64,000 bases of DNA from Escherichia coli (GTDB lineage: Bacteria > Pseudomonadota > Gammaproteobacteria > Enterobacterales > Enterobacteriaceae), in NCBI GenBank assembly GCA_029351405.1, contig GCA_029351405.1_4841.1; one strand, written 5' to 3'. Below are positions 2,949-31,903 of this stretch, piece by piece; position 1 is the stretch's first letter; the number at the start of each line of letters is the position of its first letter. The position numbers and the translations under genes were made by a program. The notes under the pieces are model-generated. The model had not been told where the DNA came from, ran no database searches, and saw only the letters and a program-made list of their open reading frames with translations.

Positions 2949-3262
2949 AAATTTATTTTCCTGGCCAAAAGGTGCCTTCTGAAGTGCAGAAGGTCACAAT
3001 CACAGGCTACCGGAAAGGGGATCCATATCTGCGCTTCTCCTCTCCATGTATCGTGAAGCAAACTAAAACGGGTTATTATATCAGGCCGATTGTGTTGATG
3101 GGCTGTGTAATGACGTTCAGAGCTTCCTGTGAACACGTTCTTATACAAGGAAGTCCAAACATCGAAGGTGGAGAAACCCACATGAACTGCAAGCCGATTA
3201 TCCCGACATGGTTGATTATTGGTGTGCTTTCCGTTTTAGCTCTGAAAGGAGTATTGTCATGA
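2945..3262 (+). CDS. hypothetical protein with C-terminal transmembrane helix
   Basis: ORF, C-terminal hydrophobic segment [16 protein letters not shown]. Confidence 0.4.
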
Positions 3263-3588
3263 AAAAGCCACGCATCACAGGACATCAACTCTGCGTCCTT
3301 TTAGGAATGTTGAACTTTGAGAAAGGTCATTGCCGTTATGGTGAATGGTACTTTCATCCCAAATCCTGGACCAATGACAAGGGCAACACCGTCTGGACGT
3401 TCCGGGTATGCCCGAACGCTGGTGGTTTCACCTCCGTCAAAGGCAACCCCCGCACAGGGGCTTCCCTGCTCGCCAAGGGGTTGATCGAACCAGCTGGCTC
3501 AATGGTTCATGACGGTTCTTACGTGAACTGGCCGAACACTGAGGTGACGTTCTATCGCCTGACCGAACTCGGTAAATCTTATCTCTGA
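3259..3588 (+). CDS. hypothetical protein
   Basis: ORF from internal Met (MKKPRITG), overlaps upstream stop. Confidence 0.4.
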   Translation: MKKPRITGHQLCVLLGMLNFEKGHCRYGEWYFHPKSWTNDKGNTVWTFRVCPNAGGFTSVKGNPRTGASLLAKGLIEPAGSMVHDGSYVNWPNTEVTFYRLTELGKSYL

Positions 3589-3658: not shown

Positions 3659-3973
3659 ATGACCCCATTAAAAGAAATGTATGAGCGCCTGTCTGAACTA
3701 CAGGCGAAGGAAAAGCGCTTCTCAGAAGAAGAGACAGAGCTGTCCGAGCTGAACAACCTGATCGCCACTCGTGAGAAGTACCTGCAGCGCTACATTAATC
3801 ACCCGCCGCGCATGGTAGACCGCGTCAGCACTATCATGGACCTGGATGAAGTTACTCCTGGCAAAGAAATCATTGTCAGGGAAGTCCACCAGATGGTCGC
3901 CATGGGTCAGATCTTTGGTCGTGCAGACCAAGACGACATGATCTTCCTCCTTGAAAAGAAACTGGTGATGTGA
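3659..3973 (+). CDS. hypothetical protein
   Basis: ORF with AGAGGAA ribosome-binding site upstream; predicted helical. Confidence 0.45.
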   Translation: MTPLKEMYERLSELQAKEKRFSEEETELSELNNLIATREKYLQRYINHPPRMVDRVSTIMDLDEVTPGKEIIVREVHQMVAMGQIFGRADQDDMIFLLEKKLVM

Positions 3974-4479
3974 TGGCTATCAAACCCCGTATGTTGTTTG
4001 CGCATATGCGCTCGGCTCATGCATACGCTCTGTCCAGCTATGCACAGCGCCTGAAGGTCGGCTGTGTTATCGTTGACCCGCGTGTTGACCAGCCCCTGTC
4101 TATCGGTTGGAACGGGACTGCTCCTGGCGCTCCTAATGTCTGTGAGAAGGAAGTAGACGGTCAACTGGTATCGGTGGGTGTTATCCACGCCGAGGAGAAT
4201 GCTCTGAGCAAACTCCCCCAGCACACTGAAGACTGTTGTGGCCTGGTGATGTTTGTCACTCATAGCCCATGCCCAGAGTGCACCCGTCGTATTATCGACA
4301 GTGGCAAGATCGCTAAAGTGTTCTATGACCGACCATATCGTATCATAGACGGTATTATTGAAATGCTGGCTGCTGGAATTGAAGTATATCGCATGGTCGA
4401 TCAGTTTGTTGTAGTCCAGCATTCTGTGAAGAACGGCGAACTGGTATCCACCCCTGTTTTAGTGAACCCTGACAAATAA
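3970..4479 (+). CDS. dCMP deaminase (cytidine/deoxycytidylate deaminase family)
   Basis: Zinc-binding signature HAEENA ... SPCPEC (H-x-E / P-C-x2-C). Confidence 0.75.
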   Translation: MMAIKPRMLFAHMRSAHAYALSSYAQRLKVGCVIVDPRVDQPLSIGWNGTAPGAPNVCEKEVDGQLVSVGVIHAEENALSKLPQHTEDCCGLVMFVTHSPCPECTRRIIDSGKIAKVFYDRPYRIIDGIIEMLAAGIEVYRMVDQFVVVQHSVKNGELVSTPVLVNPDK

Positions 4480-8693: not shown

Positions 8694-8704
8694 CGAGGTG
8701 ACCC

Positions 8705-16706: not shown

Positions 16707-18131
16707 CTAGAATTTCCAATTATTGACCGTTTGGGCTTTCTGCTCATCGCTGGCAGCAGCCCCGGACTTGTTGAGGTCATGTTTGATGTGTACGTTTTCG
16801 ACATATTTGGCCTCAGCCTCAGTCAGGTCCTTCTTAACTTCGTTCCAGTCCAGGTCAAACAGGATCTGTTTGTCTTGGTCCATACCAAACAGGAATGATT
16901 TCAGCTTCTGCTTGTTGGCATAACGGTTCTTGAGTATTGAGGCTCGGGCTTTCTTGACCGCCGCCAGTTCGTCAGGAGCATAGAATGCCATGATGAAGTC
17001 GGCCACCTTCGGAATACCGATAGCATCTGCCAAATCACTGATTCCGCCATCAGTGCTATTCTGATTCTCACGATTGAACTGCATACCAGTCCATACAGGG
17101 ACATCAAACTCAAATCCCAGCGCACGAAACTCACGAGCCACAGACGTGTAATAGACGTTCGTGTTCTGCATCAGGTGGGCAGGCAGGCGCGAGGAAGCAG
17201 CTTCGCCAAGATAGTCAATAACGATAACATCGGGAGCACGACCAGTTGCCTGGATGTACTCAAGGATATCGCGGCGGAATAAACCTGTGTGTCCAGCACC
17301 GGAAGGATATTCCTTGATGACGATATCACCCTTGGGTGCACCATCTTGGCGACTGCGGAGCTTCTCTATCGTTGCAATATACTCGTGCCTTGTGAGTTTC
17401 TCTAAAGACTCAAAGTCACGACGCATGATACGGGCATCAAGACGGTGTCGCCAGACGTTCTCGGCCACTTCAAGGGTGAAGACAAAGACGTTCAGCCCCT
17501 GCTCCGAGTACCCTGCGGTCAGGTCAATCAGCGTTGTGGTCTTACCTGCGTTGATCGCACCTGTTACGATGTTCAGTGTCTTCTTACCAACGCCACCACG
17601 TGTCGCCTTATTGAAGATCTCAACTGCGAACGGGATCTTGGCCTCGTTGGAGTTCATGTGGTCATACTGCTCTGCCGCCATCTCCCAATAGATGTGACCG
17701 AGGTATGAATCAAACCGGATCGCCAGGGCTTCCTGCAACATGGTCGGGATGTTGTTCATCTCGTCCTTGCGCTTCTCGTCACCGTAGATGTTGACGGCGG
17801 TCTTGATTGCGTTGTGTACGGCCTTTTGCCGCGCCCAAGCCTCGGTTTCCTTCGCCAGCCACTCTTCATTGAAGGTGTTGTCGTTGATGTTCTCCAGGGC
17901 AGATACCGCCTGGTCAAACACATATTCGTTCAGCTTTGTCCGTTCAAGAATTATAGATAGTGCTTCGACAGACGGGCGGGCATTGTACTCTGAGGTATAA
18001 CTGTCAATCAGACCAAAGATGACCTTTTCGCCTTCGTTGTCAAAATAATCGGCTTTCAGGTACGGCAGGATCTTTCTTTGGTAATCTTCATTGTAAATCA
18101 ACTGTGAAAGCACGACAGATTCGAGTAACAT
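16707..18131 (-). CDS. DnaB-like replicative DNA helicase (gp41-like)
   Basis: Walker A GAINAGKTT, Walker B-like VIVIDYLGEA, N-terminal DnaB-like helical domain; 474 aa. Confidence 0.8.
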   Translation of the reverse strand: MLLESVVLSQLIYNEDYQRKILPYLKADYFDNEGEKVIFGLIDSYTSEYNARPSVEALSIILERTKLNEYVFDQAVSALENINDNTFNEEWLAKETEAWARQKAVHNAIKTAVNIYGDEKRKDEMNNIPTMLQEALAIRFDSYLGHIYWEMAAEQYDHMNSNEAKIPFAVEIFNKATRGGVGKKTLNIVTGAINAGKTTTLIDLTAGYSEQGLNVFVFTLEVAENVWRHRLDARIMRRDFESLEKLTRHEYIATIEKLRSRQDGAPKGDIVIKEYPSGAGHTGLFRRDILEYIQATGRAPDVIVIDYLGEAASSRLPAHLMQNTNVYYTSVAREFRALGFEFDVPVWTGMQFNRENQNSTDGGISDLADAIGIPKVADFIMAFYAPDELAAVKKARASILKNRYANKQKLKSFLFGMDQDKQILFDLDWNEVKKDLTEAEAKYVENVHIKHDLNKSGAAASDEQKAQTVNNWKF

Positions 18132-18137
18132 TGGCCA

Positions 18138-18467
18138 CTACCCCACCAAAAATTTATTATATTCCTGAGCATTACGCTGCATGAGGTCTACAAGGATATC
18201 CCCTGACACCTCAGTGAACAAGTCATTTTCTTTCAAATTCACAAACATCAGACGCAATGGTTTCTTCAATATATCAGTCACGAAAGACAGGCGGGGTTCG
18301 CCGTCCACTTCGTTGATGGCCACCTTGCCGAACCGGAATTGAACACCACGGAATTTGCCAGAAGTGATCTTGATGATCGCCAGCTGATCAGCACCAGGGT
18401 CGATGATTGTGTAGTTATTGGGGGAGTCTCCTCCCCCTCCACTGTTATTCGCTTGTGTTAATAACAT
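18138..18467 (-). CDS. hypothetical protein
   Basis: ORF from internal Met; Gly-rich N-terminus (NNSGGGGDSP). Confidence 0.4.
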   Translation of the reverse strand: MLLTQANNSGGGGDSPNNYTIIDPGADQLAIIKITSGKFRGVQFRFGKVAINEVDGEPRLSFVTDILKKPLRLMFVNLKENDLFTEVSGDILVDLMQRNAQEYNKFLVG

Positions 18468-19530
18468 GGTCCATTTGCTCCAGCATGTTAGCAGGCATAA
18501 CAGTACCGTTAGAAACACCGAACATTTTCTTCACGTCATCGGCGAAGTTGACATTCTCCAGCAGCGGATACCAGAAATCATCACCCATCTGACGCTTCTG
18601 ATATTTCTTTTCCTTCTCAGGATCGAAACCACCCTTGGCTGTACGCACATACCAGCCGGAAGACGGCATATCAACATAACCCAGAGCACGAGCGATCTCA
18701 AGCAGGCCGCTCCAGCGATCAATACCACCGTTGTACAGTACCGTCACAGGGAGCTTGGCTTTCTCTTTGACATGGCGACCTTTCATGATGCTTATGTTGA
18801 AGTTCCAGCCCAGCAGATCTTTGTCTTCCTTCACCTGAGAACGGGTGATAAACCAGATCAAGTTGGATGATAAGAAGCCCTGCTTGCCGCCTTTGATGTT
18901 AGGCTCGGCATACTGGTTGCCGATCTCATCGTAATAGGAGTTGATCCAAACACACACGAGATTTTTGCTGTTGATTTCAGGAGTCATGACACGCCAGAAG
19001 CTGTTGAGGGCACGGGCGCGGGTCATGTCTTGAGTGTCGTTCCCTTTGATCGCATCTTCAACTTCCTTGGTGGAGGGAAGTTGGCTGATAGAGTCGATGA
19101 AGATTATAACATGGTCGCCTTTCTTGACTTCCTGTAGGATCTGCAGCAAGCGGATCTTGGTCTGTTCAACGTTGTCGATCGGTACGTACAGGACGCGGTC
19201 CATGTCAATGCCCATAGAGGTCCAGTAATCAGCGTTGGCACCCTTTTCCGAGTCAGCAAATACACAGATAGCATCAGGGAACTTGTCCATATAAGCCTTG
19301 ACGTCCACCAGACCGAACATCGTTTTGAAGGTACGGGAATCACCCACCATCATCTTGATACCGGAGATCAGGCCGCCGTCAATACGCCCAGACCATGCGA
19401 TGTCGATCAGGGGAATACCAGTAGAACATATGATAGACGGTTCCAGAGCGTCTGATTGGGACAGTACTGAAGCCTGGTCGTCATGTTTCTTGGCAACCTT
19501 CAGCATGCGGTCCATTAATGAACTGGCCAT
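18445..19530 (-). CDS. uvsX: UvsX / RecA-like recombinase
   Basis: RecA-fold ATPase core with P-loop-like GDSRTFKT and overall UvsX-like layout, 361 aa. Confidence 0.8.
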   Translation of the reverse strand: MASSLMDRMLKVAKKHDDQASVLSQSDALEPSIICSTGIPLIDIAWSGRIDGGLISGIKMMVGDSRTFKTMFGLVDVKAYMDKFPDAICVFADSEKGANADYWTSMGIDMDRVLYVPIDNVEQTKIRLLQILQEVKKGDHVIIFIDSISQLPSTKEVEDAIKGNDTQDMTRARALNSFWRVMTPEINSKNLVCVWINSYYDEIGNQYAEPNIKGGKQGFLSSNLIWFITRSQVKEDKDLLGWNFNISIMKGRHVKEKAKLPVTVLYNGGIDRWSGLLEIARALGYVDMPSSGWYVRTAKGGFDPEKEKKYQKRQMGDDFWYPLLENVNFADDVKKMFGVSNGTVMPANMLEQMDHVINTSE

Positions 19531-20057
19531 TTCACTTCCTCTTTGTTGTTAATCGTCGTTAGTAAGTCTACACCCATAACCTTCTGGGACAAAATGTTAA
19601 CCGCCTCTTGGATGCTCTTCAGGGACATTGTCTCAACAAGCGACGATGCGTCATTATGCCGGTCGGTTAGGTACATATTGCGCAGATTGTTGTAGTTCGT
19701 GCGGTTGATGCACGCAGTGTTCAGTGCTATATTCAGGATATACATTATCTGTTCAATGGTTACATCCTTTGGCATAGCGTGGATGTAATAGATCGAGCCT
19801 TCAAAATAGACGTCTACCAGTTCATCTGGTATCTTGATGCCACCACTGGCATACTCTTCGATCATTCTGAACAGAGACTCTGGTTGCTCGCTGGCGATCT
19901 TATGCGTAACAGTCGCCGAAAGACCGTCGCCCGGTTTAACAGGCCTGTTGTATTCAGTAAGGAATACATTATGGCCGCCGCCGATGATGTGCTCGGCGAA
20001 TTTGGAGGATGCCTGAGCAGCGTTCTCCGCATGGTATGAAACGACGACTGTAAACAT
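19515..20057 (-). CDS. hypothetical protein
   Basis: 180 aa ORF, no recognised motif. Confidence 0.45.
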   Translation of the reverse strand: MFTVVVSYHAENAAQASSKFAEHIIGGGHNVFLTEYNRPVKPGDGLSATVTHKIASEQPESLFRMIEEYASGGIKIPDELVDVYFEGSIYYIHAMPKDVTIEQIMYILNIALNTACINRTNYNNLRNMYLTDRHNDASSLVETMSLKSIQEAVNILSQKVMGVDLLTTINNKEEVKWPVH

Positions 20058-20611
20058 TAGAACTCCAGGGTCAGAGGGGTTTCTGCGGACTTGTCGTAAT
20101 CCGCGCCACCAGAAGCACGCAGACGATTGCGATCGTTCTTGCGCTTGTGCGCCAGTATGTAAGTCTCAATGTCGATCTCCATATAAGAACACGCAGACGA
20201 CAGGAAGAACATGAGAGTCTCAACGCAAGGATCGTTCATGAATTGCCCAAGGCGGTACGTAACATTGCGATGCCTTGCAACACCCAAAGCAGGTGGGGTG
20301 AATTCGCGATTACTGAGGACTTCAAATTCTTCTTCGATCTCGCCTTTGGTGCGGTCCACAAGGATGAAGCACAACATGAAGTGTACCACGTCCACCAGTT
20401 CATAAACTGCGTTCGTATGGTCAAACCCGATGTCGTTGCCATAGACCTTCCAGTCACGGGTGGTTTCATCAAGGAACTCTGCCCACTCACGATAGATAGA
20501 GTTGATGACTGCGTTCTGACTCCATACATTCTTCCACTCTTCCCCAAAGTAGGCCACGTTAGTGGCCTTTTGGAGTTCGAGCAGGCTTTTGATATGCCCT
20601 GCTGTGATCAT
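20057..20611 (-). CDS. all-alpha NTP pyrophosphatase (MazG / dimeric dUTPase-dCTPase-like, putative)
   Basis: Helical protein with acidic E-x2-E / W-containing segments (REWAEFLDETTRDW) typical of all-alpha NTP-PPases. Confidence 0.4.
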   Translation of the reverse strand: MITAGHIKSLLELQKATNVAYFGEEWKNVWSQNAVINSIYREWAEFLDETTRDWKVYGNDIGFDHTNAVYELVDVVHFMLCFILVDRTKGEIEEEFEVLSNREFTPPALGVARHRNVTYRLGQFMNDPCVETLMFFLSSACSYMEIDIETYILAHKRKNDRNRLRASGGADYDKSAETPLTLEF

Positions 20612-21177
20612 TTACGTTCTCCGTAGAATTTAACGAACGGTTCCCAACCATCAAATGGATTGAGGAATTCGTAGTCCACTTTCATTTGGTCAATGAAAGC
20701 CTCTATATCGTCCTCTATGATACCAGCACGATCAGCCTTTGAAATACGGGTGATAGGGCATTTCGTACTCAGCGCCCATTCATATTCCTGAGGGGTACGC
20801 AGATCGCTCACGATATAATGGACGTGGGGGTTCTGCTCTACCAGAGGAAGCTGGAAGCGCTTGAAGAATGCCAGGAACAGATCGGGTTGTACGTAACGCA
20901 AGCCCGTATCGCTGCCTAGATGAAGCCAGATCTGCCGGGGAGTTAAGCCCTTGGGGTTATCAGGGTGCACGTAAGGAACGTCCTTCACGGCATCCTCTAC
21001 CTCCGCTGGTAGCCATGGATAGATGAAGTTGGCAACCCGGCGCAGTTCATCTGAGAACGAAAGGCGCTGGATATCCATATCACCCTGTAGATGGTGATAG
21101 CTGATGAGGGACTCCAAACAGAAGTCCTTACCGGAGCGCTTGCGCCCCGTAAAGAATTCAAGATTTGGGTACATCAT
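20608..21177 (-). CDS. deoxynucleoside monophosphate kinase (T4 gp1-like)
   Basis: N-terminal P-loop variant GRKRSGKD matching the dNMP kinase signature. Confidence 0.6.
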   Translation of the reverse strand: MMYPNLEFFTGRKRSGKDFCLESLISYHHLQGDMDIQRLSFSDELRRVANFIYPWLPAEVEDAVKDVPYVHPDNPKGLTPRQIWLHLGSDTGLRYVQPDLFLAFFKRFQLPLVEQNPHVHYIVSDLRTPQEYEWALSTKCPITRISKADRAGIIEDDIEAFIDQMKVDYEFLNPFDGWEPFVKFYGERK

Positions 21178-22220
21178 ACTACACCTTCCAGGAACTTAGG
21201 ATCAACGATCTTGCGGTCAACCGGGGAATGGGTGAGCGCGGCGTTCAATCCATGATCCTGAATCAGGTCCAGGTTAATGAGCTTGTTATTCAATTTGCAG
21301 TGCAGGCAGTATGCCATCTGCACAATCAGACCGCGATCCGCATCATACTCCTTCAGGAAGGCAACAACAGTTTCCCAAGGACTACCGAAGTCACAATGAA
21401 CAAGCACGCCAGTGAACAGATCGCGGATATGGTTCTGGTTGGTCACGTTCGTGAAGTGGATCATGGAGTTGATGAACCCAGCTTCTACTTTGGTGTCCTT
21501 CGTGATCTTGCCCAGCTGCTTCTGGCTGACTTCATTGTTGTAGTAATGAAGATTGTTGGAGAAGAGCTTGTACTGGCCGACGTCAACATCCAACACCCGA
21601 GCAATCACTTCCTGAAGAATAGAGAACTCAATGAAGTTGATTGAACTCATACCCCACAGAACATCCTGTGAGCGATTGATAACCGTCAGGTTCAGGCGAC
21701 CTTCAACGATGGCGAACAACAGAGCCAGGTTACACACCATGTCCTTGGTCTTTGCTTCGCCACTCTCACTGAACTTCGCCAGACCAGCATCTGAATCCAG
21801 AGCCGGATCATAGATGGTGAGGTACGCCTGGCGAGTGTTTGGATTCTTGCGCAGGCGGTTGATGACGCTATCCAGCTGGCCATGGGCGTACAGACGCGGA
21901 CCATAAGCGGCTCGCCATGTGTGGCCGTTGTCGGAAAAGTTGGCGGCGCGGGGCAACACGCGGGACAGGAAGCGAACGTCATCGCGCCCGGACAGAACCC
22001 AGAAGGTCTCGCCGATGGCGGCGATAGCCGATGAGTTACGACCTTCAACGGATAGCCAGCGGTCACGGATGTCGGCGACGGTTATGGTCACGCCATCAAG
22101 GAAGCGGGTGCTATCAGTATTGATTTCAGCATTACCAGGATCAGATTCGATCCCGAATTCACGGATAGCCAAGACAGCCTGTTTCAGCATGTCATTGTTG
22201 TTTATTGCTTTGATTTCCAT
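21174..22220 (-). CDS. thymidylate synthase-family enzyme (TS or pyrimidine hydroxymethylase)
   Basis: ThyA-family motifs: RQAYLTIYDP, Cys-containing VCN segment, NRSQDVLWGMSSINFIEFSILQ; 348 aa with C-terminal extension. Confidence 0.7.
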   Translation of the reverse strand: MEIKAINNNDMLKQAVLAIREFGIESDPGNAEINTDSTRFLDGVTITVADIRDRWLSVEGRNSSAIAAIGETFWVLSGRDDVRFLSRVLPRAANFSDNGHTWRAAYGPRLYAHGQLDSVINRLRKNPNTRQAYLTIYDPALDSDAGLAKFSESGEAKTKDMVCNLALLFAIVEGRLNLTVINRSQDVLWGMSSINFIEFSILQEVIARVLDVDVGQYKLFSNNLHYYNNEVSQKQLGKITKDTKVEAGFINSMIHFTNVTNQNHIRDLFTGVLVHCDFGSPWETVVAFLKEYDADRGLIVQMAYCLHCKLNNKLINLDLIQDHGLNAALTHSPVDRKIVDPKFLEGVV

Positions 22221-22879
22221 CAGATACTCCCAAAATCACGACAGAGGAATGCCATCACAGCCTGGTCTACTGTTAGGCCGTGAGACTTCATCATACCCGC
22301 AGCCACCGTAGGGAACAAGTCTTTATGTCGTTGACGATGGTCATGAACTCTCTCCCACTTCTCGACCACCAGACTTTCATTGAAATCCACACCGCCGTTG
22401 CGTGATTTAACGCGGGTGATACACGTTTCAAGAGGAGTGTCCATAAAGAGCACAACCAATTCACGTGGTGGGCGTGTCAGGCGGGGGATCCAAGAACTCA
22501 ATAATGTGGATGGAATGATACCTTCGAAAATCACATCATATTTCAAGTATTCTGGTTGGTCAGCAATAGACAACGCGAACAACATCTGCTCAGTGTCCTT
22601 CAGGGAATCAACCCCCTTGGACTTCGACTTGTCATATTTACCGATACAGACCACGTTGAACGAAGGACAGACAGTCAGCATGACCTTGCCGTTATGGGTC
22701 ACGACATACGCCTGAGGATCCCTCTCCGCCAGCTGAGACGGCACAGTGGATTTACCGCTACCATTGGAGCCTTTGACGTAGTAGATTTGCCCTCGTGCTG
22801 GGTATATCCCCTTCACAACAGGTGGTTTAAAGAATGTGTGGACGGGGCGCTTCATCAGCCCCTTCAGGGAGTAGGACAT
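22220..22879 (-). CDS. P-loop kinase (candidate nucleotide / DNA-base kinase)
   Basis: Walker A GSNGSGKST; start at internal ATG with GGAG ribosome-binding site; abuts ThyA-family gene. Confidence 0.5.
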   Translation of the reverse strand: MSYSLKGLMKRPVHTFFKPPVVKGIYPARGQIYYVKGSNGSGKSTVPSQLAERDPQAYVVTHNGKVMLTVCPSFNVVCIGKYDKSKSKGVDSLKDTEQMLFALSIADQPEYLKYDVIFEGIIPSTLLSSWIPRLTRPPRELVVLFMDTPLETCITRVKSRNGGVDFNESLVVEKWERVHDHRQRHKDLFPTVAAGMMKSHGLTVDQAVMAFLCRDFGSI

Positions 22880-22894
22880 AGACTGCTCCAATAA

Positions 22895-22923
22895 ACAAAA
22901 GGAGCTGCTATTATAGCAGCCCC
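22895..22923 (-). terminator. rho-independent terminator
   Basis: GCTGCTA-loop-TAGCAGC hairpin followed by TTTTGTTTATT on minus strand, after stop of 22955..23776. Confidence 0.5.
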
Positions 22924-22954
22924 TTCATCTATTGAACAGTTTCTGAACTTAAAT

Positions 22955-23776
22955 TTACACAGCTTTCGCTTCAGCCAGAGCCTGTGGAAGCCATTCATTG
23001 ATCGCCTTAACCAGAGACTCAGCATCAGACTCTTTGATCTTCTGACGTTTGGTGAAGGACTTGCCGTTTACGTACAGACTGAAGCCCCAGCCACCGGAAA
23101 CGATAGGCGCAACGTCGACATACGTATTGGTGCGGGCGTGAAGGTTTTCAGGGTTAGCCAGTTCGGTGACCGGGAACTGGAACCAACGCATGTCTGGGTT
23201 CACGTAGCTCAGGAACACGCCGGGGACAACACCAGCTTCAATCGCCGCCAAGACCGGACCGTGATTAGAAGCGCGAGCCAAGTCAACCATTTCCTCACGT
23301 TTGGTGTGACGGCGTTTACGCTCTACCAGCGCTGCCTGCGGGGTCAGGGTCTTACCCTTCGATGCTTCTTTCAACATAGAAGACGCCAAGGAGCCGATTT
23401 TCGCGTCGGACGGCTGATTGCCTTCTTCCAGCGCCGCGTTGACTGCATCTTGAACCGCGTCTACTGGGGCTTCACAAGCATCGGCAGAGATCGGTGCTTC
23501 AGCATCAACGGTTTCAGCGACTTTCAGGGATACTTCAGCTTGGGCTTGCTCTTGGGCTTGCGCCAGAGCCTGCTGAGTTTCTTCCTTCTCTTCGGCGCTC
23601 AGACCTTCAATCAGTTCGAAGCCGTTGGCAGCCTGAAGAACACCTTCAACCATACGGCGCAGGGTAACGTTTCCGATGATCAGACCTGCTTCTTTGATTT
23701 CAGCCTGAATAGCAGCAACGTCTTTGCCTTCAATTTCAATTTTGGTTCCAGAATCCACATGAAGAATATATGACAT
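22955..23776 (-). CDS. hypothetical protein with acidic low-complexity centre
   Basis: 273 aa; E/Q/A-rich repeat-like segment (EEKEETQQALAQAQEQAQAE); own promoter and terminator. Confidence 0.5.
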   Translation of the reverse strand: MSYILHVDSGTKIEIEGKDVAAIQAEIKEAGLIIGNVTLRRMVEGVLQAANGFELIEGLSAEEKEETQQALAQAQEQAQAEVSLKVAETVDAEAPISADACEAPVDAVQDAVNAALEEGNQPSDAKIGSLASSMLKEASKGKTLTPQAALVERKRRHTKREEMVDLARASNHGPVLAAIEAGVVPGVFLSYVNPDMRWFQFPVTELANPENLHARTNTYVDVAPIVSGGWGFSLYVNGKSFTKRQKIKESDAESLVKAINEWLPQALAEAKAV

Positions 23777-23844
23777 AATAAAAACCCTTTCGTTATTAAG
23801 ACCGTATCCGCGGCATATTGTTGTTCTGACTGTGTAGTGAGAAC

Positions 23845-23873
23845 ATAATATACTGCATTTTCATAGATGTAAA
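23845..23873 (-). promoter_or_regulatory. sigma70 / T4-early-type promoter
   Basis: Minus-strand TTTACA -35, 17-nt spacer, TATTAT -10, about 65 nt upstream of ATG at 23776. Confidence 0.5.
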
Positions 23874-23965
23874 CTACTTTTTATTGAAAAGAAAGTTAAC
23901 ACCTTAGTGTTATAAGGTGCGCGACCAAGCGGAGCGCGAACTTGCGTGAATATTAACTTTCTACG

Positions 23966-24241
23966 TCAATATAGAAAAACCATTTCCGGTGGCCAACAAT
24001 TTGTTAGCTCGACTTTTGCGAACCGTGGTTGGCAGTACGCATCAACCGACTCATCAAACAGACAGTGTTCTACATTTGCAATCATCAGATCATCATCCAC
24101 CACTTCAACAGAATGGACAATGATCTTGTGGTCATACGTCAGGCAACCGTCTAAATGCATGTTGTCAGCGCGGAGGTGTTGCATGATGAAATACTCTATG
24201 ATCGACTCAAGGACAGTCGTCAGCTTCAGATAACGTTTCAT
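23966..24241 (-). CDS. hypothetical protein (91 aa)
   Basis: ORF with GAGAGGTG ribosome-binding site, co-oriented with neighbours. Confidence 0.4.
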   Translation of the reverse strand: MKRYLKLTTVLESIIEYFIMQHLRADNMHLDGCLTYDHKIIVHSVEVVDDDLMIANVEHCLFDESVDAYCQPRFAKVELTNCWPPEMVFLY

Positions 24242-24261
24242 ACACACCTCTCACATTGGAG

Positions 24262-25011
24262 TTATTTGGACAGATAGAAGTTTGGAACTTCAGGGAAATG
24301 CTCTGGTAGATATCCCACCAGAACATCCTGTTTCACCTTCCCTTCGATATCTTCGCGGATACGACGAATCACATCTTCCTGTTGTTCTGCTGCCATCACT
24401 TCTTCCATGGCTGAGTACAAGTTTTCTAGAATGACACCTACGTAGTTGTGGATGGCACGACAGGAGTTCTGATCATACTCCATATCCGGATGAATCGCCA
24501 GGTCGACCTGATCACGCCCTACCAGCAGATGCCCAGACACCAGATTTATCGGGTATTTGAATACTTCACCAGATTTGACAGCAACTCCGTCGGCTTGCTT
24601 CAGCAGGAATTCGGTTTCAGAGAAGCGTTCAAGTAGTTCCGATGGGAATACCATATCGAGATTCTGATGTTTACGACCAAAGAAGTACAGACAATGCGCC
24701 AGTTTCAGGCATGCATCGGTGGCCATCTTCATGTGTGCTTTAGCGTGTTCATAACCAGCGATCACATCACGGACATAATCGTACAGGTCGGAATGACCAA
24801 AACGGATGTCCTCTTCGAAGCGGATTGCTGTTTCACTGTCCGGTTTCACACCCAGAACATCGAAAATATTTTGTTCACGAACGGATCTGCCGTTTCGATC
24901 GAAACCCAGAACGCAACCGACTTCGAATCCACTCTTTTCAAAATTTGGGAGTTTCATATCAAGGCGAGCTGGGGTAAACTCTAACCCGAACATACGATAA
25001 ATTTGTGACAT
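24262..25011 (-). CDS. hypothetical protein
   Basis: 249 aa ORF, no recognised motif. Confidence 0.5.
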   Translation of the reverse strand: MSQIYRMFGLEFTPARLDMKLPNFEKSGFEVGCVLGFDRNGRSVREQNIFDVLGVKPDSETAIRFEEDIRFGHSDLYDYVRDVIAGYEHAKAHMKMATDACLKLAHCLYFFGRKHQNLDMVFPSELLERFSETEFLLKQADGVAVKSGEVFKYPINLVSGHLLVGRDQVDLAIHPDMEYDQNSCRAIHNYVGVILENLYSAMEEVMAAEQQEDVIRRIREDIEGKVKQDVLVGYLPEHFPEVPNFYLSK

Positions 25012-25073
25012 GTTATAGCCTCATCATTTAGGATTACCTGTTCACGAATTATCCCTCGGAACGGGTTATAGAA

Positions 25074-25778
25074 CTATTTCTTCTTATGCATACGACGTGC
25101 ATCTTTCCACACAGACATCTGGCTCTGTTTCTGGAAGCGGGCAGTGCGCATGAAGAGAACGATCTCCCAGTACTGTGGCTCAATCTCGTAAAGCTGTGAA
25201 CGGAACTGATCGGCGCGGTACAGCTTCACACAGTGATTGTACAGCGGATGGTTGGCGAAGCGCTTCAGGGCTTCCCAGGTGAGCTTCAGACGCGTCTTCG
25301 AGCGGTATGCCCGTTCGTTACGCAACTTGATCAGATCCTCAAACACCAACAGCCTGAGCTTCGGTGGCAGGTAGTGCATGTTGAGTCCCCAGAGGTATGT
25401 CACACCCTTCTCTCCAAAGGTGATACCATCACCCTTGACAAAGTTGAAGAAGAACACCAGAGGGTACATATCCCAGTAGGGTAGTTCATTCTTCGTCAGA
25501 GCATCATATTTGAAATAGAACATACGCCCGACTATATACCGCACACCTTGTACCGGACGTTTATGATCAGCGAATGCCTGTTTCATATGGTTGGGACTCA
25601 GGTTGGCGTCCTTAGACACACGCTCCATGAACCACAAATGCGAACGGCGGATGTTACGCTTCGCCTCTGGGCCGAAGTGTTGACGGTACTTGCGGATGTA
25701 ACGCTTGACCAGCTCGGGGGCGTCCATCTCGGCCGGAAACAGCAACGGATCTTCTTCGCCAGCTGCATTCTTTGCCAT
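25074..25778 (-). CDS. hypothetical protein
   Basis: 234 aa ORF, basic C-terminus, no recognised motif. Confidence 0.5.
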   Translation of the reverse strand: MAKNAAGEEDPLLFPAEMDAPELVKRYIRKYRQHFGPEAKRNIRRSHLWFMERVSKDANLSPNHMKQAFADHKRPVQGVRYIVGRMFYFKYDALTKNELPYWDMYPLVFFFNFVKGDGITFGEKGVTYLWGLNMHYLPPKLRLLVFEDLIKLRNERAYRSKTRLKLTWEALKRFANHPLYNHCVKLYRADQFRSQLYEIEPQYWEIVLFMRTARFQKQSQMSVWKDARRMHKKK

Positions 25779-29582: not shown

Positions 29583-30092
29583 TTAACGGGTGATGATTTT
29601 GCTATCAGGCAGGACCAGACCAGGGTGGTCCAGGTTCTTCTGCATCTGTTGGATACTCTGCAGGATCACGGTAGTGTCAATGTGGCGTTTCACTTTGCGC
29701 GCTTCATCACCGTAGGAGATCTGCCCCTGAGGATCGATGTAGTGGGCTGACACAACCTGCAGATCATAACCACACTTGATCAGGTACTTAGCAATGTTGC
29801 TAACTTCGAGAGACAGGGACTCACCGTCCACACCGATGTTGGCTGAGTAGACGATTACGCCATTTTCTACCGCTTTTGGTTCAAACAAAACCATACCAGC
29901 GATCGTCTGGATCAAAGGAACTCCCTCGGTATCGAAAGCCACCTGATCGAACGCGCCGATGAACTCATCCGGCACTTTACCTTCGGCATCAGAAACTGTG
30001 TGTTTCATAAGGTCCAGGACGTGTTGTTGTACTTCCTCAATCGGAGCACGTTCAACGGGTTTTTCGTTTTGCATTACTTTTCTCCAGTTCAT
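29583..30092 (-). CDS. hypothetical protein
   Basis: ORF from internal Met (MNWRK), no motif. Confidence 0.4.
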   Translation of the reverse strand: MNWRKVMQNEKPVERAPIEEVQQHVLDLMKHTVSDAEGKVPDEFIGAFDQVAFDTEGVPLIQTIAGMVLFEPKAVENGVIVYSANIGVDGESLSLEVSNIAKYLIKCGYDLQVVSAHYIDPQGQISYGDEARKVKRHIDTTVILQSIQQMQKNLDHPGLVLPDSKIITR

Positions 30093-30576
30093 AATCGCGC
30101 TCCACAACGTATTGGTAGACACGCATCTTAATATAGTCAGCACTGCCTGCTGAAGACAGCACCATCCATCCACTACTAAGGGCATTCATCTTATATTGAC
30201 CAACACCCTCTTGAAAATAACTTTTAATCTGTTCCAGCTTTCGCCCACGATGATAATACGAGATGAGTTCACCGATGACAATACAATCTGGATAATGCTT
30301 TTCCAATGTATTGATGTTGCGGTGAACATATACGGGTAGAACTTCTTCATCGTCGATAGGGCTGTAGTATGGGTCTACGATGACCACTTGTAGACCATAA
30401 CGCAGCAGGTCTTTGACACCCAGCCGACAGAACTTATAATCTTCGTGTTTCATTGCCACATGGAGGATATTCTCTTTCTTGGCATAATCGGTCAGGAAGA
30501 TAAAGAAGTCTGTGTTGGGATCGGGATATTGTATAGACAGTTCTTTGCCTATTTCACTAAAACAAAATCCGCGCAT
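30052..30576 (-). CDS. hypothetical protein
   Basis: ORF with GAGGA ribosome-binding site before third-codon Met; no motif. Confidence 0.4.
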   Translation of the reverse strand: MRGFCFSEIGKELSIQYPDPNTDFFIFLTDYAKKENILHVAMKHEDYKFCRLGVKDLLRYGLQVVIVDPYYSPIDDEEVLPVYVHRNINTLEKHYPDCIVIGELISYYHRGRKLEQIKSYFQEGVGQYKMNALSSGWMVLSSAGSADYIKMRVYQYVVERDYELEKSNAKRKTR

Positions 30577-30625
30577 TTTCATTCCTCGTTATAATTACTC
30601 TTACAATATACCGTGGAGATACATT

Positions 30626-31432
30626 ATGAATTTACCATCATTGCCCAGAACAGAAAAGACATATAAAAGCGACTTTTGGCCTACTGTGATCAAATATCGC
30701 GCCTTTACTGCGGGGCAACAAACTTTGTTACTTCAGGTGTCAGATCCGCAAACGCCGATTGAAGAACGCGCAGCCATGATGGAGAGTCTCTTTAGCGAGT
30801 GTGTAAATGCAGGCGCACCTTTCAGCAAACTGCCAATCGGCGTTGTTGAAGAAGTGTTCATCCGCATGCGCATGATCTCCATCGGTGAATTGATGAAGAT
30901 TCGTTATAAGTGCAATAATCAGATTGAAGAAACGATCGATCTGGGAGATGGTCAAGAAAAGCACCAGATGGTTCCCTGTGAGCAGGAACTGACTTTACCT
31001 ATCCCGTTGAACAATGTCAAATGCATTGCTCAGGACGGCTTCCGGGAGACGTTTGACCTGCCAGGTGGATATCACCTCAAAATGCGCCAACCTTCCTTCT
31101 CGGACGCTACGGCACTGTCTGATGCTGCAAGCGTTGAGATGATGCTGGCCACCTTTATCGACTGTCTGTATGATGATGACGGTCAGGTGTGGAAGGTTGA
31201 GAATCCTGAAGAAATCGGAATCACTCCGGAAGAGGCTACTGAGCGCCGCCGTGTGAAAGAAGCGTTTGTTGGGTGGGTGAAGGATAACATCGAATCAGAT
31301 GTTATTGACAGCATTACGAAGAACTTCTTCCATAAAATACCGCGCATCCACTACAAGAGTTCGATCAAGTGTCCGAAATGTGGTAAGGAGCACAAAATCG
31401 AATTCAATAGTATTAATGAAATTTTCATTTAA
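30626..31432 (+). CDS. hypothetical protein with C-terminal C-x2-C zinc-ribbon (possible baseplate assembly protein)
   Basis: Start at internal Met (MNLPSLP) with GGAG ribosome-binding site; CPKCGKEH near C-terminus; lies just upstream of gp5-like gene. Confidence 0.4.
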   Translation: MNLPSLPRTEKTYKSDFWPTVIKYRAFTAGQQTLLLQVSDPQTPIEERAAMMESLFSECVNAGAPFSKLPIGVVEEVFIRMRMISIGELMKIRYKCNNQIEETIDLGDGQEKHQMVPCEQELTLPIPLNNVKCIAQDGFRETFDLPGGYHLKMRQPSFSDATALSDAASVEMMLATFIDCLYDDDGQVWKVENPEEIGITPEEATERRRVKEAFVGWVKDNIESDVIDSITKNFFHKIPRIHYKSSIKCPKCGKEHKIEFNSINEIFI

Positions 31433-31580
31433 TGTTTGAAACTGATTTATTATCCTACTTCGTGATGTGTGATGAATTGAAGTTACACGGCTATAGCATA
31501 TTTGAAATCAACGAGTCGATGCCATGGCATCTTGACTTGTTAACCGAAGCCCTCAAGGTCAGGTTGTCTAAGAAACAGTA

Positions 31581-31603
31581 ATCCCGCTTCGGCGGGATTT
31601 TTA
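31581..31603 (+). terminator. rho-independent terminator
   Basis: ATCCCGC-TTCG-GCGGGAT stem-loop followed by TTTTT. Confidence 0.6.
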
Positions 31604-31903
31604 TTGGCTTAACTGTAAAATCGGTTAACACGCACTCTCTTTACCTGAAATTGCTATAATGGGCTTGTTCCCCGAATCATTTGTTGGTGTTTGTCTGTTT
31701 TGAATCAGATTGTCAGTAAAATACCATTTTTCAAGGAGTGTTCTGGGGTGTACAGTTATTGCCTCGCCCTTATGCCTCCATGGCATTGGAATGGTGCTGC
31801 CCGCATAGGGCGGTTTGATGAGCGAAGCGAATAGGATCGAATAAAACAAATAAAATGAACGGAAGCAGAGCTTCCTATAGTATATAAGGCAAAATCAGCT
31901 GCG

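What the first reader, a model, noticed from the sequence alone, without database searches (positions are those of the whole stretch)
20057..22891. Pyrimidine-modification block: ThyA-family enzyme abutted by a P-loop kinase, dNMP kinase and NTP pyrophosphatase
Four consecutive minus-strand genes with overlapping stops and starts encode an all-alpha NTP pyrophosphatase-like protein, a T4 gp1-like dNMP kinase (GRKRSGKD), a ThyA-family enzyme with a C-terminal extension, and a second P-loop kinase (GSNGSGKST). A dCMP deaminase sits elsewhere in the window (3970..4479). In phages with hydroxymethylated or hypermodified pyrimidines (T4 hmC, SPO1 hmU, ViI and phiW-14 hypermodified thymidine) a ThyA paralog acts as a hydroxymethylase, and in the hypermodifying phages a dedicated P-loop kinase phosphorylates 5-hmdU in DNA. 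The arrangement here fits such a pathway, but whether the ThyA homolog is a synthase or a hydroxymethylase, and what the second kinase phosphorylates, cannot be read from the sequence.
Basis: partly seen in the sequence, partly recalled or inferred. Interest (0 to 1): 0.7.

Follow-up and report, generated by a model that had tools for sequence, protein, structure and literature searches.

The report
Known phage thymidine-hypermodification gene block

Summary
Four translationally coupled minus-strand genes lie at 20057-22879. The window is an Agtrevirus-type Ackermannviridae phage, about 97.5-98.7% identical in DNA to phages AV101 and fGh-Ecl02. The same four genes, in the same order, occur in Salmonella phage ViI.

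1. The second P-loop kinase is a 5-hmdU DNA kinase. It matches Pfam PF18748 end to end (E 1.7e-108) and is 88% identical to ViI gp67, whose activity on 5-hmdU DNA was shown in vitro.

2. The ThyA homolog is a dUMP hydroxymethylase, not a synthase.
- Asp replaces Leu three residues before the catalytic Cys. This is the published water-activating signature.
- It keeps the uracil-specific Asn and the deoxyribose-specific Ser.
- It lacks the synthase C-terminal tail.
- It scores far closer to known dUMP and CMP hydroxymethylases than to synthases.
- Its predicted fold matches MilA over its full length.

The downstream enzymes (serine transferase, PLP decarboxylase, second kinase, aGPT-Pplase1) are not in the window. 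All four are present in AV101.

Published papers already name these genes in ViI-like phages, including the Agtrevirus phages Ag3 and SKML-39 and the close Limestonevirus relative PP35. Verdict: already known, low interest.

The parts
22220..22879 (-). 5-hydroxymethyl-dU DNA kinase (5-HMUDK), ortholog of ViI gp67. The maximal ORF runs to TTG 22891, but the likely start is ATG 22879.
   Evidence: PF18748 HMUDK_HMUD1 at E 1.7e-108, 361 bits against a cutoff of 27, covering profile positions 1-195 of 196. 88% identical to ViI YP_004327432. Same position in the ViI genome. GGAG Shine-Dalgarno sequence before ATG 22879. Walker A motif GSNGSGKST.
21174..22220 (-). dUMP hydroxymethylase: a thymidylate-synthase-fold core plus a MilA-like C-terminal helical domain.
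   Evidence: PF00303 matches the core only, residues 67-235. 74% identical to ViI Vi01_060c and 95% to PP35 ORF43, which is named dUMP hydroxymethyltransferase. D160 lies at Cys-3; C163, N164, S184 and N195 are in place. phmmer bits: PaTs-2 97, SP10 92, Goe2 90, MilA 67, against EcTS 30 and Td 27. AF2 model pLDDT 94; best Foldseek match MilA, TM 0.72 over 347 columns.
20608..21177 (-). Deoxynucleoside monophosphate kinase. Inferred role: 5-hmdUMP to 5-hmdUDP.
   Evidence: phrog_139 at E 1.8e-47. 92% identical to ViI dnk Vi01_059c. P-loop GRKRSGKD against T4 gp1 GVKRSGKD. No Pfam or NCBIfam family reached threshold.
20057..20611 (-). All-alpha NTP pyrophosphohydrolase of the dimeric-dUTPase family. 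Inferred role: dUTP to dUMP, possibly also clearing canonical dTTP.
   Evidence: PF08761 dUTPase_2 at 36.8 bits against a cutoff of 22.9, full length. phrog_173 at 4e-40. Best PDB match is the C. jejuni dimeric dUTPase 1w2y. Shares the ELVDxxHF motif with T4 gp56 dCTPase/dUTPase. 61% identical to ViI Vi01_058c.
3970..4479 (+). dCMP deaminase, which supplies dUMP. It lies 16 kb away on the other strand.
   Evidence: PF00383 at 4.3e-16. AV101 ortholog annotated 'Cd allosteric enzyme'. Its role in the hmU pathway is described in PMC8989533.
19515..20057 (-). ACT-like protein of unknown function, translationally coupled to the block. Associated with it, but its role is not established.
   Evidence: PF24021 ACT_phage at 2.6e-79. 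TAATG overlap with the NTP-PPase stop codon. Conserved at the same position in ViI as Vi01_057c. No relative in the PDB.
22898..22926 (-). Stem-loop with a 13-bp stem, just upstream of the kinase start.
   Evidence: Terminator-like hit and the sequence itself. The T-tail is weak, so its function (terminator of the upstream gene or an RNA-stability element) is not established.

Best explanation
The block is the front end of the ViI-type thymidine hypermodification pathway of an Agtrevirus-like Ackermannviridae phage.

Before replication: the dCMP deaminase (3970-4479) and the all-alpha NTP pyrophosphatase (20057-20611) supply dUMP. The ThyA paralog (21174-22220) uses methylene-tetrahydrofolate to add a one-carbon unit at C5. 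It then traps the exocyclic methylene intermediate with water activated by Asp160 instead of reducing it by hydride transfer, giving 5-hmdUMP. The dNMP kinase (20608-21177) phosphorylates 5-hmdUMP to the diphosphate, and host NDP kinase makes 5-hmdUTP. The phage polymerase incorporates 5-hmdUTP in place of T.

After replication: the 5-hmdU DNA kinase (22220-22879) transfers the gamma-phosphate of ATP to the hydroxymethyl group of 5-hmdU in duplex DNA, giving 5-PmdU. This activated base is the substrate of enzymes encoded outside the window: an aGPT-Pplase2 serine transferase and a PLP decarboxylase. In ViI these convert about 40% of T positions to 5-(2-aminoethoxy)methyl-dU, which blocks many restriction endonucleases.

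Shown here by sequence and structure: the family assignments, orthology to ViI, the hydroxymethylase signature, and the presence of the downstream genes in the nearest relative.

Taken from the literature on ViI: the kinase activity, the serine transfer, the decarboxylation and the identity of the final base.

Inferred: the substrates of the dNMP kinase and the NTP-PPase, and that this particular phage makes 5-NeOmdU.
For: Kinase:
- PF18748 at 1.7e-108, full length.
- 88% identical to ViI gp67, which phosphorylates 5-hmdU DNA in vitro (PMC8989533).

Synteny:
- ViI has kinase, thyA, dnk and dUTPase in the same order and orientation, next to uvsX and gene 41.

Hydroxymethylase:
- Asp at Cys-3 in the window protein, ViI, SP10, Goe2, PaTs-2, MilA and T4 dCH, against Leu in E. 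coli ThyA and T4-type Td.
- This Asp is the proposed water activator, and D145N abolishes T4 dCH activity (PMC6400193).
- Across 117 database homologs, the Asp is conserved in 115 and the uracil-specific Asn in 115.
- The best PDB match by sequence is MilA, a CMP hydroxymethylase, at 8e-18; synthases score 1e-8 or worse.
- tblastn ranks hydroxymethylases of hmU-type or hypermodifying phage lineages at 1e-24 to 1e-33 and Td synthases at 1e-4 to 1e-6.
- All NCBIfam thymidylate-synthase equivalog models fall far below their cutoffs, for example 56 bits against 327.
- The AF2 model (pLDDT 94) matches MilA over its full length at TM 0.72. Synthases match at TM about 0.55, core only.
- This is the only ThyA-family gene in the window and in the whole AV101 genome.

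Downstream genes:
- Orthologs of ViI gp160, gp226, gp243 and gp247 are present in AV101 at 81, 92, 85 and 90% identity.

Literature:
- PMC5889632 lists the Agtrevirus phages Ag3 and SKML-39 among 5-HMUDK phages and predicts 5-NeOmdU in them.
- PMC6336734 names the PP35 orthologs.
Against: - No chemistry has been done on this phage or on any Agtrevirus, so the final modified base is inferred from Kuttervirus data.
- The downstream enzymes are not in the 64-kb window. Their presence in this genome rests on relatives that are 97-99% identical in DNA.
- The Ser/Thr-x-Tyr part of the published T4 dCH signature is not met: the window protein has Ala104. The position is also Ala or Gly in the annotated dUMP hydroxymethylases of SP10, a SPO1-like phage and an M6-like phage, so it appears to be specific to cytosine enzymes.
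- I found no paper reporting an in vitro assay of the ViI-clade dUMP hydroxymethylase itself.
- The dNMP kinase has no curated-family match, and its similarity to T4 gp1 is weak.
- The NTP-PPase scores 29.5 bits against a cutoff of 300 for the NCBIfam dUTPase equivalog, so its substrate is uncertain.
Confidence: 0.9

Rival explanations
1. The ThyA homolog is an ordinary thymidylate synthase that makes dTMP, and the block is a generic nucleotide-salvage operon as most database records annotate it ('thymidylate synthase', 'thymidylate kinase', 'dUTPase').
For: PF00303 matches at 1.5e-15, and the catalytic Cys, Glu, Arg, Asp, Asn, His and Tyr of the TS superfamily are all present. Most GenBank records call it thymidylate synthase. 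About 60% of T positions in ViI virion DNA are plain thymidine (PMC5889632).
Against: - Leu143 is replaced by Asp, His147 by Asn, and the Trp80/Trp83 region and the C-terminal tail that seals the active site for hydride transfer are absent.
- It scores far below every TS equivalog cutoff.
- It scores three times higher against annotated dUMP hydroxymethylases than against TS.
- Its fold matches MilA better than any TS.
- It is fused in an operon with a bona fide 5-hmdU DNA kinase, which would have no substrate if only dTMP were made.
- According to PMC8989533, the thymidine in ViI virions derives from 5-hmdU after replication.
Confidence: 0.03
2. The pathway stops at, or diverges after, 5-hmdU/5-PmdU in this lineage. 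The phage would then carry 5-hmdU or a different adduct and not the 5-NeOmdU of ViI.
For: No Agtrevirus DNA has been analysed chemically, and PMC6336734 says the structure in PP35 is 'yet to be determined'. Older literature assumed hmU in these phages (PMC10791037). The downstream genes lie outside the window. Small changes in aGPT-Pplase2 can change the amino acid that is attached: M6 uses Gly and ViI uses Ser.
Against: AV101 is 98.7% identical to the window across this block. It carries orthologs of the ViI serine transferase gp247 (90%) and PLP decarboxylase gp226 (92%), plus gp160 and gp243. At these identities a change of substrate is unlikely. PMC5889632 found the same 301-Da nucleoside in every ViI-like phage it tested, including a Vibrio phage.
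Confidence: 0.07
3. The 219-aa P-loop protein is a small terminase subunit or a nucleotide (thymidylate) kinase, as RefSeq and PHROGs label it.
For: phrog_800 'terminase small subunit' at 1.2e-68 and phrog_761 'thymidylate kinase' at 6e-7. The RefSeq ViI, Ag3 and SKML-39 records say 'terminase small subunit'.
Against: The curated Pfam family PF18748 matches end to end at 1.7e-108. The ViI ortholog was shown biochemically to phosphorylate 5-hmdU in DNA. The real small terminase is a different gene next to the large terminase in ViI and AV101. The match covers only positions 3-220 of the 511-position phrog_800 profile, so the label looks like a propagated annotation error.
Confidence: 0.01

Closest known systems
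Salmonella phage ViI (Vi01) locus Vi01_058c-061c (dUTPase / dnk / thyA / gp67 5-HMUDK) and the ViI 5-NeOmdU pathway (Lee et al. 2018 PNAS, PMC5889632; Lee et al. 2021 NAR, PMC8989533)
   Same: Same four genes in the same order and strand, with the same neighbours (ACT-like gene, uvsX, gene 41 helicase). Protein identities are 61, 92, 74 and 88%. The nearest relative of the window also has the four downstream ViI genes.
   Different: A different subfamily (Aglimvirinae/Agtrevirus against Cvivirinae/Kuttervirus). The final base has not been measured in this lineage. The NTP-PPase is the most diverged component, at 61%.
Dickeya phage PP35 ORF43/ORF44 (Limestonevirus), named dUMP hydroxymethyltransferase and kinase in PMC6336734; also Agtrevirus phages Ag3, SKML-39 and AV101
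   Same: The hydroxymethylase is 95.4% identical to PP35 and 99.7% to AV101. The block is 89-99% identical in DNA. The function was already assigned in print.
   Different: Nothing of substance. GenBank annotations of these records are inconsistent ('thymidylate synthase', 'hypothetical protein', 'thymidylate kinase', 'terminase small subunit').
dUMP hydroxymethylases of Bacillus hmU and hypermodifying phages (SP10 gp188, SPO1-type) and of M6-like Pseudomonas phages
   Same: Asp at Cys-3, Asn at Cys+1, the uracil-specific Asn, the deoxyribose-specific Ser, no TS tail, and a C-terminal extension of about 110 aa.
   Different: Only 26-29% identical. In SP10 and M6 the kinase and transferase genes are clustered differently (PMC5889632).
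MilA, CMP 5-hydroxymethylase of Streptomyces rimofaciens (PDB 5b6d/5jnh; PMC5175136)
   Same: The best solved-structure match by sequence (8e-18) and by fold (TM 0.72 over the full length, including the C-terminal helical domain). It also has Asp at Cys-3.
   Different: MilA acts on cytosine ribonucleotide, with Asp186 and Ala176. The window protein has Asn195 and Ser184, the uracil and deoxyribose states.
T4 hydroxymethylcytosine module (gp42 dCMP hydroxymethylase, gp56 dCTPase/dUTPase, gp1 dNMP kinase, Cd deaminase)
   Same: The same logic: an NTP-PPase feeds the monophosphate to a TS-family hydroxymethylase, and a dedicated dNMP kinase then follows. The hydroxymethylase sits upstream of uvsX and gene 41 in both genomes.
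   Different: T4 modifies cytosine, not uracil. Its post-replicative step is glucosylation, not phosphorylation. The T4 genes are scattered, and sequence similarity is limited to motifs.

Membership tests
5-hmdU DNA kinase (Pfam PF18748 HMUDK_HMUD1) | Full-length match to the curated family model above its gathering score | tested here: met
   361 bits against a cutoff of 27, E 1.7e-108, profile positions 1-195 of 196.
5-hmdU DNA kinase (Pfam PF18748 HMUDK_HMUD1) | P-loop (Walker A) NTP-binding motif | tested here: met
   GSNGSGKST at residues 37-45 of the 219-aa protein counted from ATG 22879 (41-49 of the TTG-started ORF); conserved in ViI gp67.
5-hmdU DNA kinase (Pfam PF18748 HMUDK_HMUD1) | Orthology to an experimentally validated member | tested here: met
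   88% identical over 219 aa to ViI gp67 (YP_004327432), at the same position in the genome. ViI gp67 activity is reported in PMC8989533.
5-hmdU DNA kinase (Pfam PF18748 HMUDK_HMUD1) | Genomic co-association with a dUMP hydroxymethylase | tested here: met
   The kinase stop codon overlaps the hydroxymethylase start codon (TGATG). The association is noted in Fig. 2 of PMC5889632.
5-hmdU DNA kinase (Pfam PF18748 HMUDK_HMUD1) | ATP-dependent phosphorylation of 5-hmdU within DNA | not testable with these tools
   Needs an enzyme assay on 5-hmdU DNA.
dUMP hydroxymethylase (TS-superfamily pyrimidine hydroxymethylase) | TS-fold core with the catalytic Cys, the Glu, and the phosphate- and ribose-binding Arg, His and Tyr | tested here: met
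   E71, Y106, C163, R183, D186, H225 and Y227 are invariant in alignment A1. AF2 model pLDDT 94 with a TS fold.
dUMP hydroxymethylase (TS-superfamily pyrimidine hydroxymethylase) | Acidic residue three positions before the catalytic Cys (water activator; Leu143 in E. coli TS) | tested here: met
   D160 in KDMVC. Asp in all seven hydroxymethylases aligned and Leu in both synthases. Conserved in 115 of 117 homologs. The signature is defined in PMC6400193.
dUMP hydroxymethylase (TS-superfamily pyrimidine hydroxymethylase) | Ser/Thr two residues before the catalytic-base Tyr (second half of the T4 dCH signature) | tested here: not met
   Ala104 in the window protein. The position is also Ala or Gly in the SP10, Goe2 and PaTs-2 dUMP hydroxymethylases, and Ser in T4 dCH. 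It appears specific to cytosine enzymes, where the Tyr contacts the C4 amine.
dUMP hydroxymethylase (TS-superfamily pyrimidine hydroxymethylase) | Uracil specificity (Asn at E. coli TS N177) and deoxyribose specificity (Ser at S167) | tested here: met
   N195 and S184. The criteria come from PMC5175136.
dUMP hydroxymethylase (TS-superfamily pyrimidine hydroxymethylase) | No TS C-terminal tail to close the active site | tested here: met
   The PF00303 match ends at profile position 219 of 266. The C-terminus is a helical domain of about 110 aa that aligns with the C-terminal domain of MilA.
dUMP hydroxymethylase (TS-superfamily pyrimidine hydroxymethylase) | Groups with known hydroxymethylases and not with synthases | tested here: met
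   phmmer bits: PaTs-2 97.5, SP10 91.6, Goe2 90.4 and MilA 67.3, against EcTS 29.6 and Td 27.3. The tblastn ranking agrees.
dUMP hydroxymethylase (TS-superfamily pyrimidine hydroxymethylase) | Produces 5-hmdUMP and THF from dUMP and CH2-THF | not testable with these tools
   Needs an enzyme assay.
Canonical thymidylate synthase ThyA | Reaches an NCBIfam equivalog cutoff | tested here: not met
   The best is NF002495 at 56.6 bits against a cutoff of 327. All seven TS models are far below cutoff.
Canonical thymidylate synthase ThyA | Hydride-transfer environment: Leu143, His147, Trp80/Trp83 and the C-terminal tail | tested here: not met
   These are Asp160, Asn164, no Trp in the aligned segment ('RA-ANFSD' against 'TIWDEWAD'), and no tail.
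T4 gp1-type dNMP kinase | Profile match to the phage dNMP kinase family, and the GxKRSGKD P-loop | tested here: met
   phrog_139 at 1.8e-47. GRKRSGKD against T4 GVKRSGKD.
T4 gp1-type dNMP kinase | Significant pairwise or curated-family similarity to T4 gp1 | tested here: inconclusive
   BLASTP against T4 gp1 gives E 0.003 for the P-loop only, and 20% identity over 125 aa at E 0.15. No PDB, Pfam or NCBIfam hit reached threshold.
All-alpha NTP pyrophosphohydrolase / dimeric dUTPase (PF08761) | Match above the Pfam gathering score | tested here: met
   36.8 bits against 22.9, profile positions 2-159 of 162.
All-alpha NTP pyrophosphohydrolase / dimeric dUTPase (PF08761) | dUTP as the substrate | not testable with these tools
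   The NCBIfam dUTPase equivalog scores only 29.5 bits against a cutoff of 300. Substrate specificity (dUTP, dTTP or others) needs an assay.
Complete ViI-type 5-NeOmdU pathway | aGPT-Pplase2 serine transferase, PLP decarboxylase, second kinase and aGPT-Pplase1 present in the same genome | tested here: inconclusive
   Absent from the 64-kb window, as expected from the ViI gene map. All four are present in AV101, 98.7% identical in DNA, at 81-92% identity. The rest of this genome is not available.
Complete ViI-type 5-NeOmdU pathway | 5-NeOmdU (301-Da nucleoside) in virion DNA | not testable with these tools
   Needs LC-MS of virion nucleosides.

The most novel reading that the evidence does not exclude
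The uncharacterised conserved partners of the block could be new regulatory or pool-shaping components. These are the ACT-like protein translationally coupled downstream (19515-20057) and the diverged all-alpha NTP-PPase. One possibility is a ligand-sensing switch that controls dTTP exclusion and dUMP supply. Alternatively, the Aglimvirinae lineage could attach a different moiety from the aminoethoxy group of ViI. Nothing in the evidence here points positively to either reading. They are simply not excluded, because no Agtrevirus DNA has been analysed and neither protein has been characterised.
Probability: 0.08. Interest if true: 0.45.

Novelty: already known. Interest (0 to 1): 0.12.

Why it matters
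It matters only modestly. The locus explains why DNA of this phage group resists many restriction enzymes and is awkward to sequence or clone. That is relevant for Ackermannviridae phages being developed for therapy and biocontrol. The useful outputs here are practical:
- a residue-level rule that separates dUMP hydroxymethylases from thymidylate synthases: Asp against Leu at Cys-3, Asn against His at Cys+1, and loss of the C-terminal tail;
- evidence that the 'C-terminal extension' is a MilA-type helical domain;
- a flag that many database records mislabel the 5-hmdU DNA kinase as 'terminase small subunit' or 'thymidylate kinase', and the hydroxymethylase as 'thymidylate synthase'.

Tried and rejected
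- Sequence search of the PDB with the kinase, the dNMP kinase and the ACT-like protein found only generic P-loop matches or nothing. No solved homolog is available to compare.
- Pairwise BLASTP of the dNMP kinase against T4 gp1, and of the NTP-PPase against T4 gp56, gave motif-level similarity only. This supports superfamily relatedness but says nothing about substrate.
- The Ser/Thr-x-Tyr half of the T4 dCH signature was tested and not met. The annotated dUMP hydroxymethylases lack it too, so I dropped it as a criterion for uracil enzymes.
- MAFFT misaligned T4 D179 by one column relative to E. coli N177. I relied on the structural equivalence stated in PMC6400193 and PMC5175136.
- I looked for a second, canonical ThyA or a ThyX that could make dTMP. 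tblastn with E. coli ThyA, a T4-type Td and T4 gp42 hit only the one gene in the window and in AV101. The ThyX RHRx7S motif occurs only in spurious short ORFs of the window. ThyX was not tested with a profile.
- The promoter scan of 18400-25200 found no more sigma-70-like sites than shuffled sequence does (11 against 7.7 +/- 3.2), and none in the gap upstream of the kinase. The promoter of the block is therefore not identified.
- The EcoSal review on hypermodified DNA (PMC11163837) is not held in the library.

Full report
OBSERVATION. The four minus-strand ORFs are present as described: 20057-20611 (184 aa), 20608-21177 (189 aa), 21174-22220 (348 aa) and 22220-22891 (223 aa as the maximal ORF). 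The quoted P-loops GRKRSGKD and GSNGSGKST are there. The stop/start junctions read TGATG, ATGA, ATGA and TAATG. The chain of overlaps continues into an ACT-like gene (19515-20057) and then uvsX. The kinase most likely starts at ATG 22879: a GGAG sits 6 nt upstream, and this Met aligns with residue 1 of the ViI ortholog. All four ORFs give strong profile matches, so they are real genes. The dCMP deaminase at 3970-4479 is also real (PF00383, 4e-16).

WHERE THE WINDOW COMES FROM. The block is 98.7% identical in DNA to Escherichia phage AV101, 96% to several other Agtrevirus-type phages, 91% to Ag3 and SKML-39, and 89% to Dickeya Limestonevirus phages. The first 25 kb of the window is about 97.5% identical to fGh-Ecl02, LHE287, A221 and others. 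This is an Ackermannviridae phage (subfamily Aglimvirinae).

THE SECOND KINASE. Pfam PF18748 (5-hmdU DNA kinase) matches end to end at E 1.7e-108, 361 bits against a gathering score of 27. In Salmonella phage ViI the same four genes lie in the same order next to uvsX and the gene 41 helicase. The ViI kinase gene there is YP_004327432, which is the 'gp67' of Lee et al. The window protein is 88% identical to it. ViI gp67 was shown to convert 5-hmdU in DNA to a +80 Da (418 u) nucleotide, as M6 gp54 does; transfer of the gamma-phosphate of ATP to the DNA was shown in the same study (PMC8989533). The question of what the second kinase phosphorylates is therefore answered: the hydroxymethyl group of 5-hmdU in DNA. 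The PHROG and RefSeq labels 'terminase small subunit' and 'thymidylate kinase' are annotation errors. The real small terminase sits next to the large terminase elsewhere in ViI and AV101.

SYNTHASE OR HYDROXYMETHYLASE. Several independent tests agree on hydroxymethylase.
- Sequence search of the PDB: the best match is MilA, a CMP 5-hydroxymethylase (7.9e-18). Canonical thymidylate synthases score 1e-8 to 1e-6.
- tblastn against phage genomes: after the Ackermannviridae orthologs come the ThyA-family genes of hmU-type or thymidine-hypermodifying phage lineages (SP-10, annotated 'dUMP hydroxymethylase', 3e-26; SPO1-like Goe2, 2e-24; M6-like Pseudomonas phages, about 1e-27 to 1e-32). Genuine T4-type Td synthases score 1e-4 to 1e-6. 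In a direct phmmer comparison the bit scores are PaTs-2 97, SP10 92, Goe2 90 and MilA 67, against E. coli ThyA 30 and Td 27.
- NCBIfam: all seven thymidylate-synthase equivalog models fall far below their cutoffs, for example 56.6 bits against 327.
- Discriminating residues: the T4 dCMP hydroxymethylase ternary-complex paper (PMC6400193) proposes that an Asp three residues before the catalytic Cys activates the water that traps the exocyclic methylene. D145N is inactive, and E. coli TS has Leu143 at this position. The paper also points to loss of the Trp83-type shielding and of the C-terminal tail, which opens the site and prevents hydride transfer. In my alignment the window protein has D160-x-x-C163. 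So do ViI, SP10, Goe2, PaTs-2, MilA and T4 gp42, while E. coli ThyA and a T4-type Td have Leu. The residue after the Cys is Asn in all the uracil hydroxymethylases, Thr in the cytosine hydroxymethylases and His in the synthases. The TIWDEWAD segment of TS has no Trp counterpart. Across 117 database homologs, Asp160 is kept in 115 and Asn164 in 106.
- Substrate determinants defined in the MilA paper (PMC5175136): the window protein has Asn195 (the uracil state; Asp in cytosine enzymes) and Ser184 (the deoxyribose state; Ala in MilA). The substrate is therefore dUMP.
- Structure: the PF00303 match stops at profile position 219 of 266. An AlphaFold model built on 69 homologs (pLDDT 94, pTM 0.93) shows a TS core followed by a helical C-terminal domain. 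Foldseek against the PDB puts MilA first, aligned over the whole length (TM 0.72, 347 columns). Synthases align over the core only (TM about 0.55, about 265 columns). SP10, SPO1-like and M6-like enzymes carry a C-terminal extension of similar length. In MilA this domain lies away from the active site and is needed for solubility.

One element of the T4 signature is not met. The Ser/Thr two residues before the catalytic-base Tyr is Ala104 here, and the annotated dUMP hydroxymethylases also have Ala or Gly at this position. In T4 that region contacts the cytosine C4 amine, so I treat it as cytosine-specific.

There is no second ThyA-family gene in the window or anywhere in AV101, and no ThyX motif in a real ORF of the window.

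THE OTHER TWO GENES. The 189-aa protein matches the phage dNMP kinase family phrog_139 (1.8e-47) and is 92% identical to ViI 'dnk'. Its similarity to T4 gp1 is confined to the GxKRSGKD P-loop and a weak co-linear stretch. It reaches no Pfam, NCBIfam or PDB threshold. Its role, phosphorylating 5-hmdUMP, is inferred by analogy with the SPO1 and T4 pathways (PMC8989533).

The 184-aa protein is a full-length PF08761 dimeric-dUTPase family member. Its best PDB match is the C. jejuni dimeric dUTPase, and it shares the ELVDxxHF motif with T4 gp56. By analogy with gp56, which feeds dCMP to gp42, it most likely hydrolyses dUTP to dUMP. Whether it also removes dTTP is unknown.

REST OF THE PATHWAY. tblastn with ViI gp160 (aGPT-Pplase1), gp226 (PLP decarboxylase), gp243 (second kinase) and gp247 (serine:DNA transferase) finds nothing in the window. 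This is expected from the ViI gene map. All four are present in AV101 at 81, 92, 85 and 90% identity. In ViI, gp247 attaches serine through its side-chain oxygen to 5-PmdU, and gp226 decarboxylates the product to 5-NeOmdU. The 301-Da nucleoside replaces about 40% of T in ViI, CBA120, CBA6 and a Vibrio relative.

WHAT IS ALREADY PUBLISHED.
- Lee et al. 2018 list Ag3, SKML-39 and LIMEstone among the 5-HMUDK phages. They draw the region around the kinase with its adjacent 'dU hmt' and predict 5-NeOmdU for the whole ViI-like group.
- Kabanova et al. [quoted passage not shown] PP35 ORF43 is 95% identical to the window protein.
- The 2024 family review and the AV101 paper repeat this.

The locus is therefore already known. 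What remains unmeasured is the chemistry in Agtrevirus itself and the substrates of the two accessory enzymes.

VERDICT. Novelty: already known. Interest is low. The residual uncertainty is whether this lineage makes exactly 5-NeOmdU, and what the NTP-PPase and the coupled ACT-like protein do. That can only be settled experimentally.

Noticed in passing
window 22220-22879 (-); ViI Vi01_061c; phrog_800: Orthologs of this 5-hmdU DNA kinase are labelled 'terminase small subunit' in the RefSeq records of ViI, Ag3, SKML-39, Det7 and MK-13 and in PHROGs. PP35, Coodle and ChubbyThor call them 'thymidylate kinase'. The real small terminase is a different gene beside the large terminase. This looks like a propagated misannotation.
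   Followed up: yes
window 19515-20057 (-): A 180-aa protein matches Pfam PF24021 'Phage ACT-like domain' over its full length (2.6e-79). It is translationally coupled on both sides: TAATG with the NTP-PPase stop codon, and a 16-nt overlap with the uvsX start. It is conserved at the same position in ViI. It has no PDB relative and no known function. ACT domains usually bind small ligands, so it could regulate the neighbouring nucleotide enzymes.
   Followed up: partly
window 22898-22926 (-): A strong hairpin (13-bp stem, 6 G-C pairs, 3-nt loop) sits between the stop codon of the upstream gene (22955) and the kinase ribosome-binding site. Its T-tail is weak. No sigma-70-like promoter was found in the gap, so it is unclear how the block is transcribed.
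   Followed up: partly
window 16707-22879 (-) compared with T4 NC_000866 20612-26219 (L012): The gene order echoes T4. T4 has 41, 40, uvsX, segA, beta-gt and 42 (dCMP hydroxymethylase). The window has a 41-like helicase, a small ORF, uvsX, the ACT-like gene, NTP-PPase, dNMP kinase, dUMP hydroxymethylase and 5-HMUDK. The pyrimidine hydroxymethylase occupies the equivalent slot upstream of uvsX in both.
   Followed up: no
L007 (AV101 OQ973471) 2306-3493: The AV101 ortholog of the ViI PLP decarboxylase gp226 aligns in one tblastn segment from 2306 to 3487 (residues 30-423, 92% identity). The deposited CDS starts only at 2591, and an antisense ORF (2267-2560) is annotated over the N-terminal part. 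The AV101 annotation is probably truncated at the N-terminus.
   Followed up: no
L003 (ViI) 7433-9589; L005 (AV101) 29677-31817; outside the window: A second all-alpha NTP pyrophosphatase (MazG-like, 287 aa) lies immediately beside aGPT-Pplase1 (gp160) in both ViI and AV101. Together with the dUTPase_2-family enzyme in the window, this gives the phage two candidate enzymes for shaping dUTP and dTTP pools. Which one does what is unknown.
   Followed up: no
window 22955-23776 (-): A 273-aa protein rich in Ala, Glu and Gln lies immediately upstream of the block. It matches phrog_3905 (unknown function, 9.5e-135) and no Pfam family. It is conserved in ViI (Vi01_062c) and AV101.
   Followed up: no
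Homologous-protein hits P0042, P0056, P0062 and P0049-P0112: More distant members of the same Asp-at-Cys-3 hydroxymethylase-like clade occur in bacterial genomes (Paenarthrobacter, Rhizobium rhizogenes). Others are longer proteins of 490-600 aa on metagenomic contigs and in Brevibacterium phage LuckyBarnes, which suggests fusions to extra domains. All are annotated 'thymidylate synthase'.
   Followed up: no
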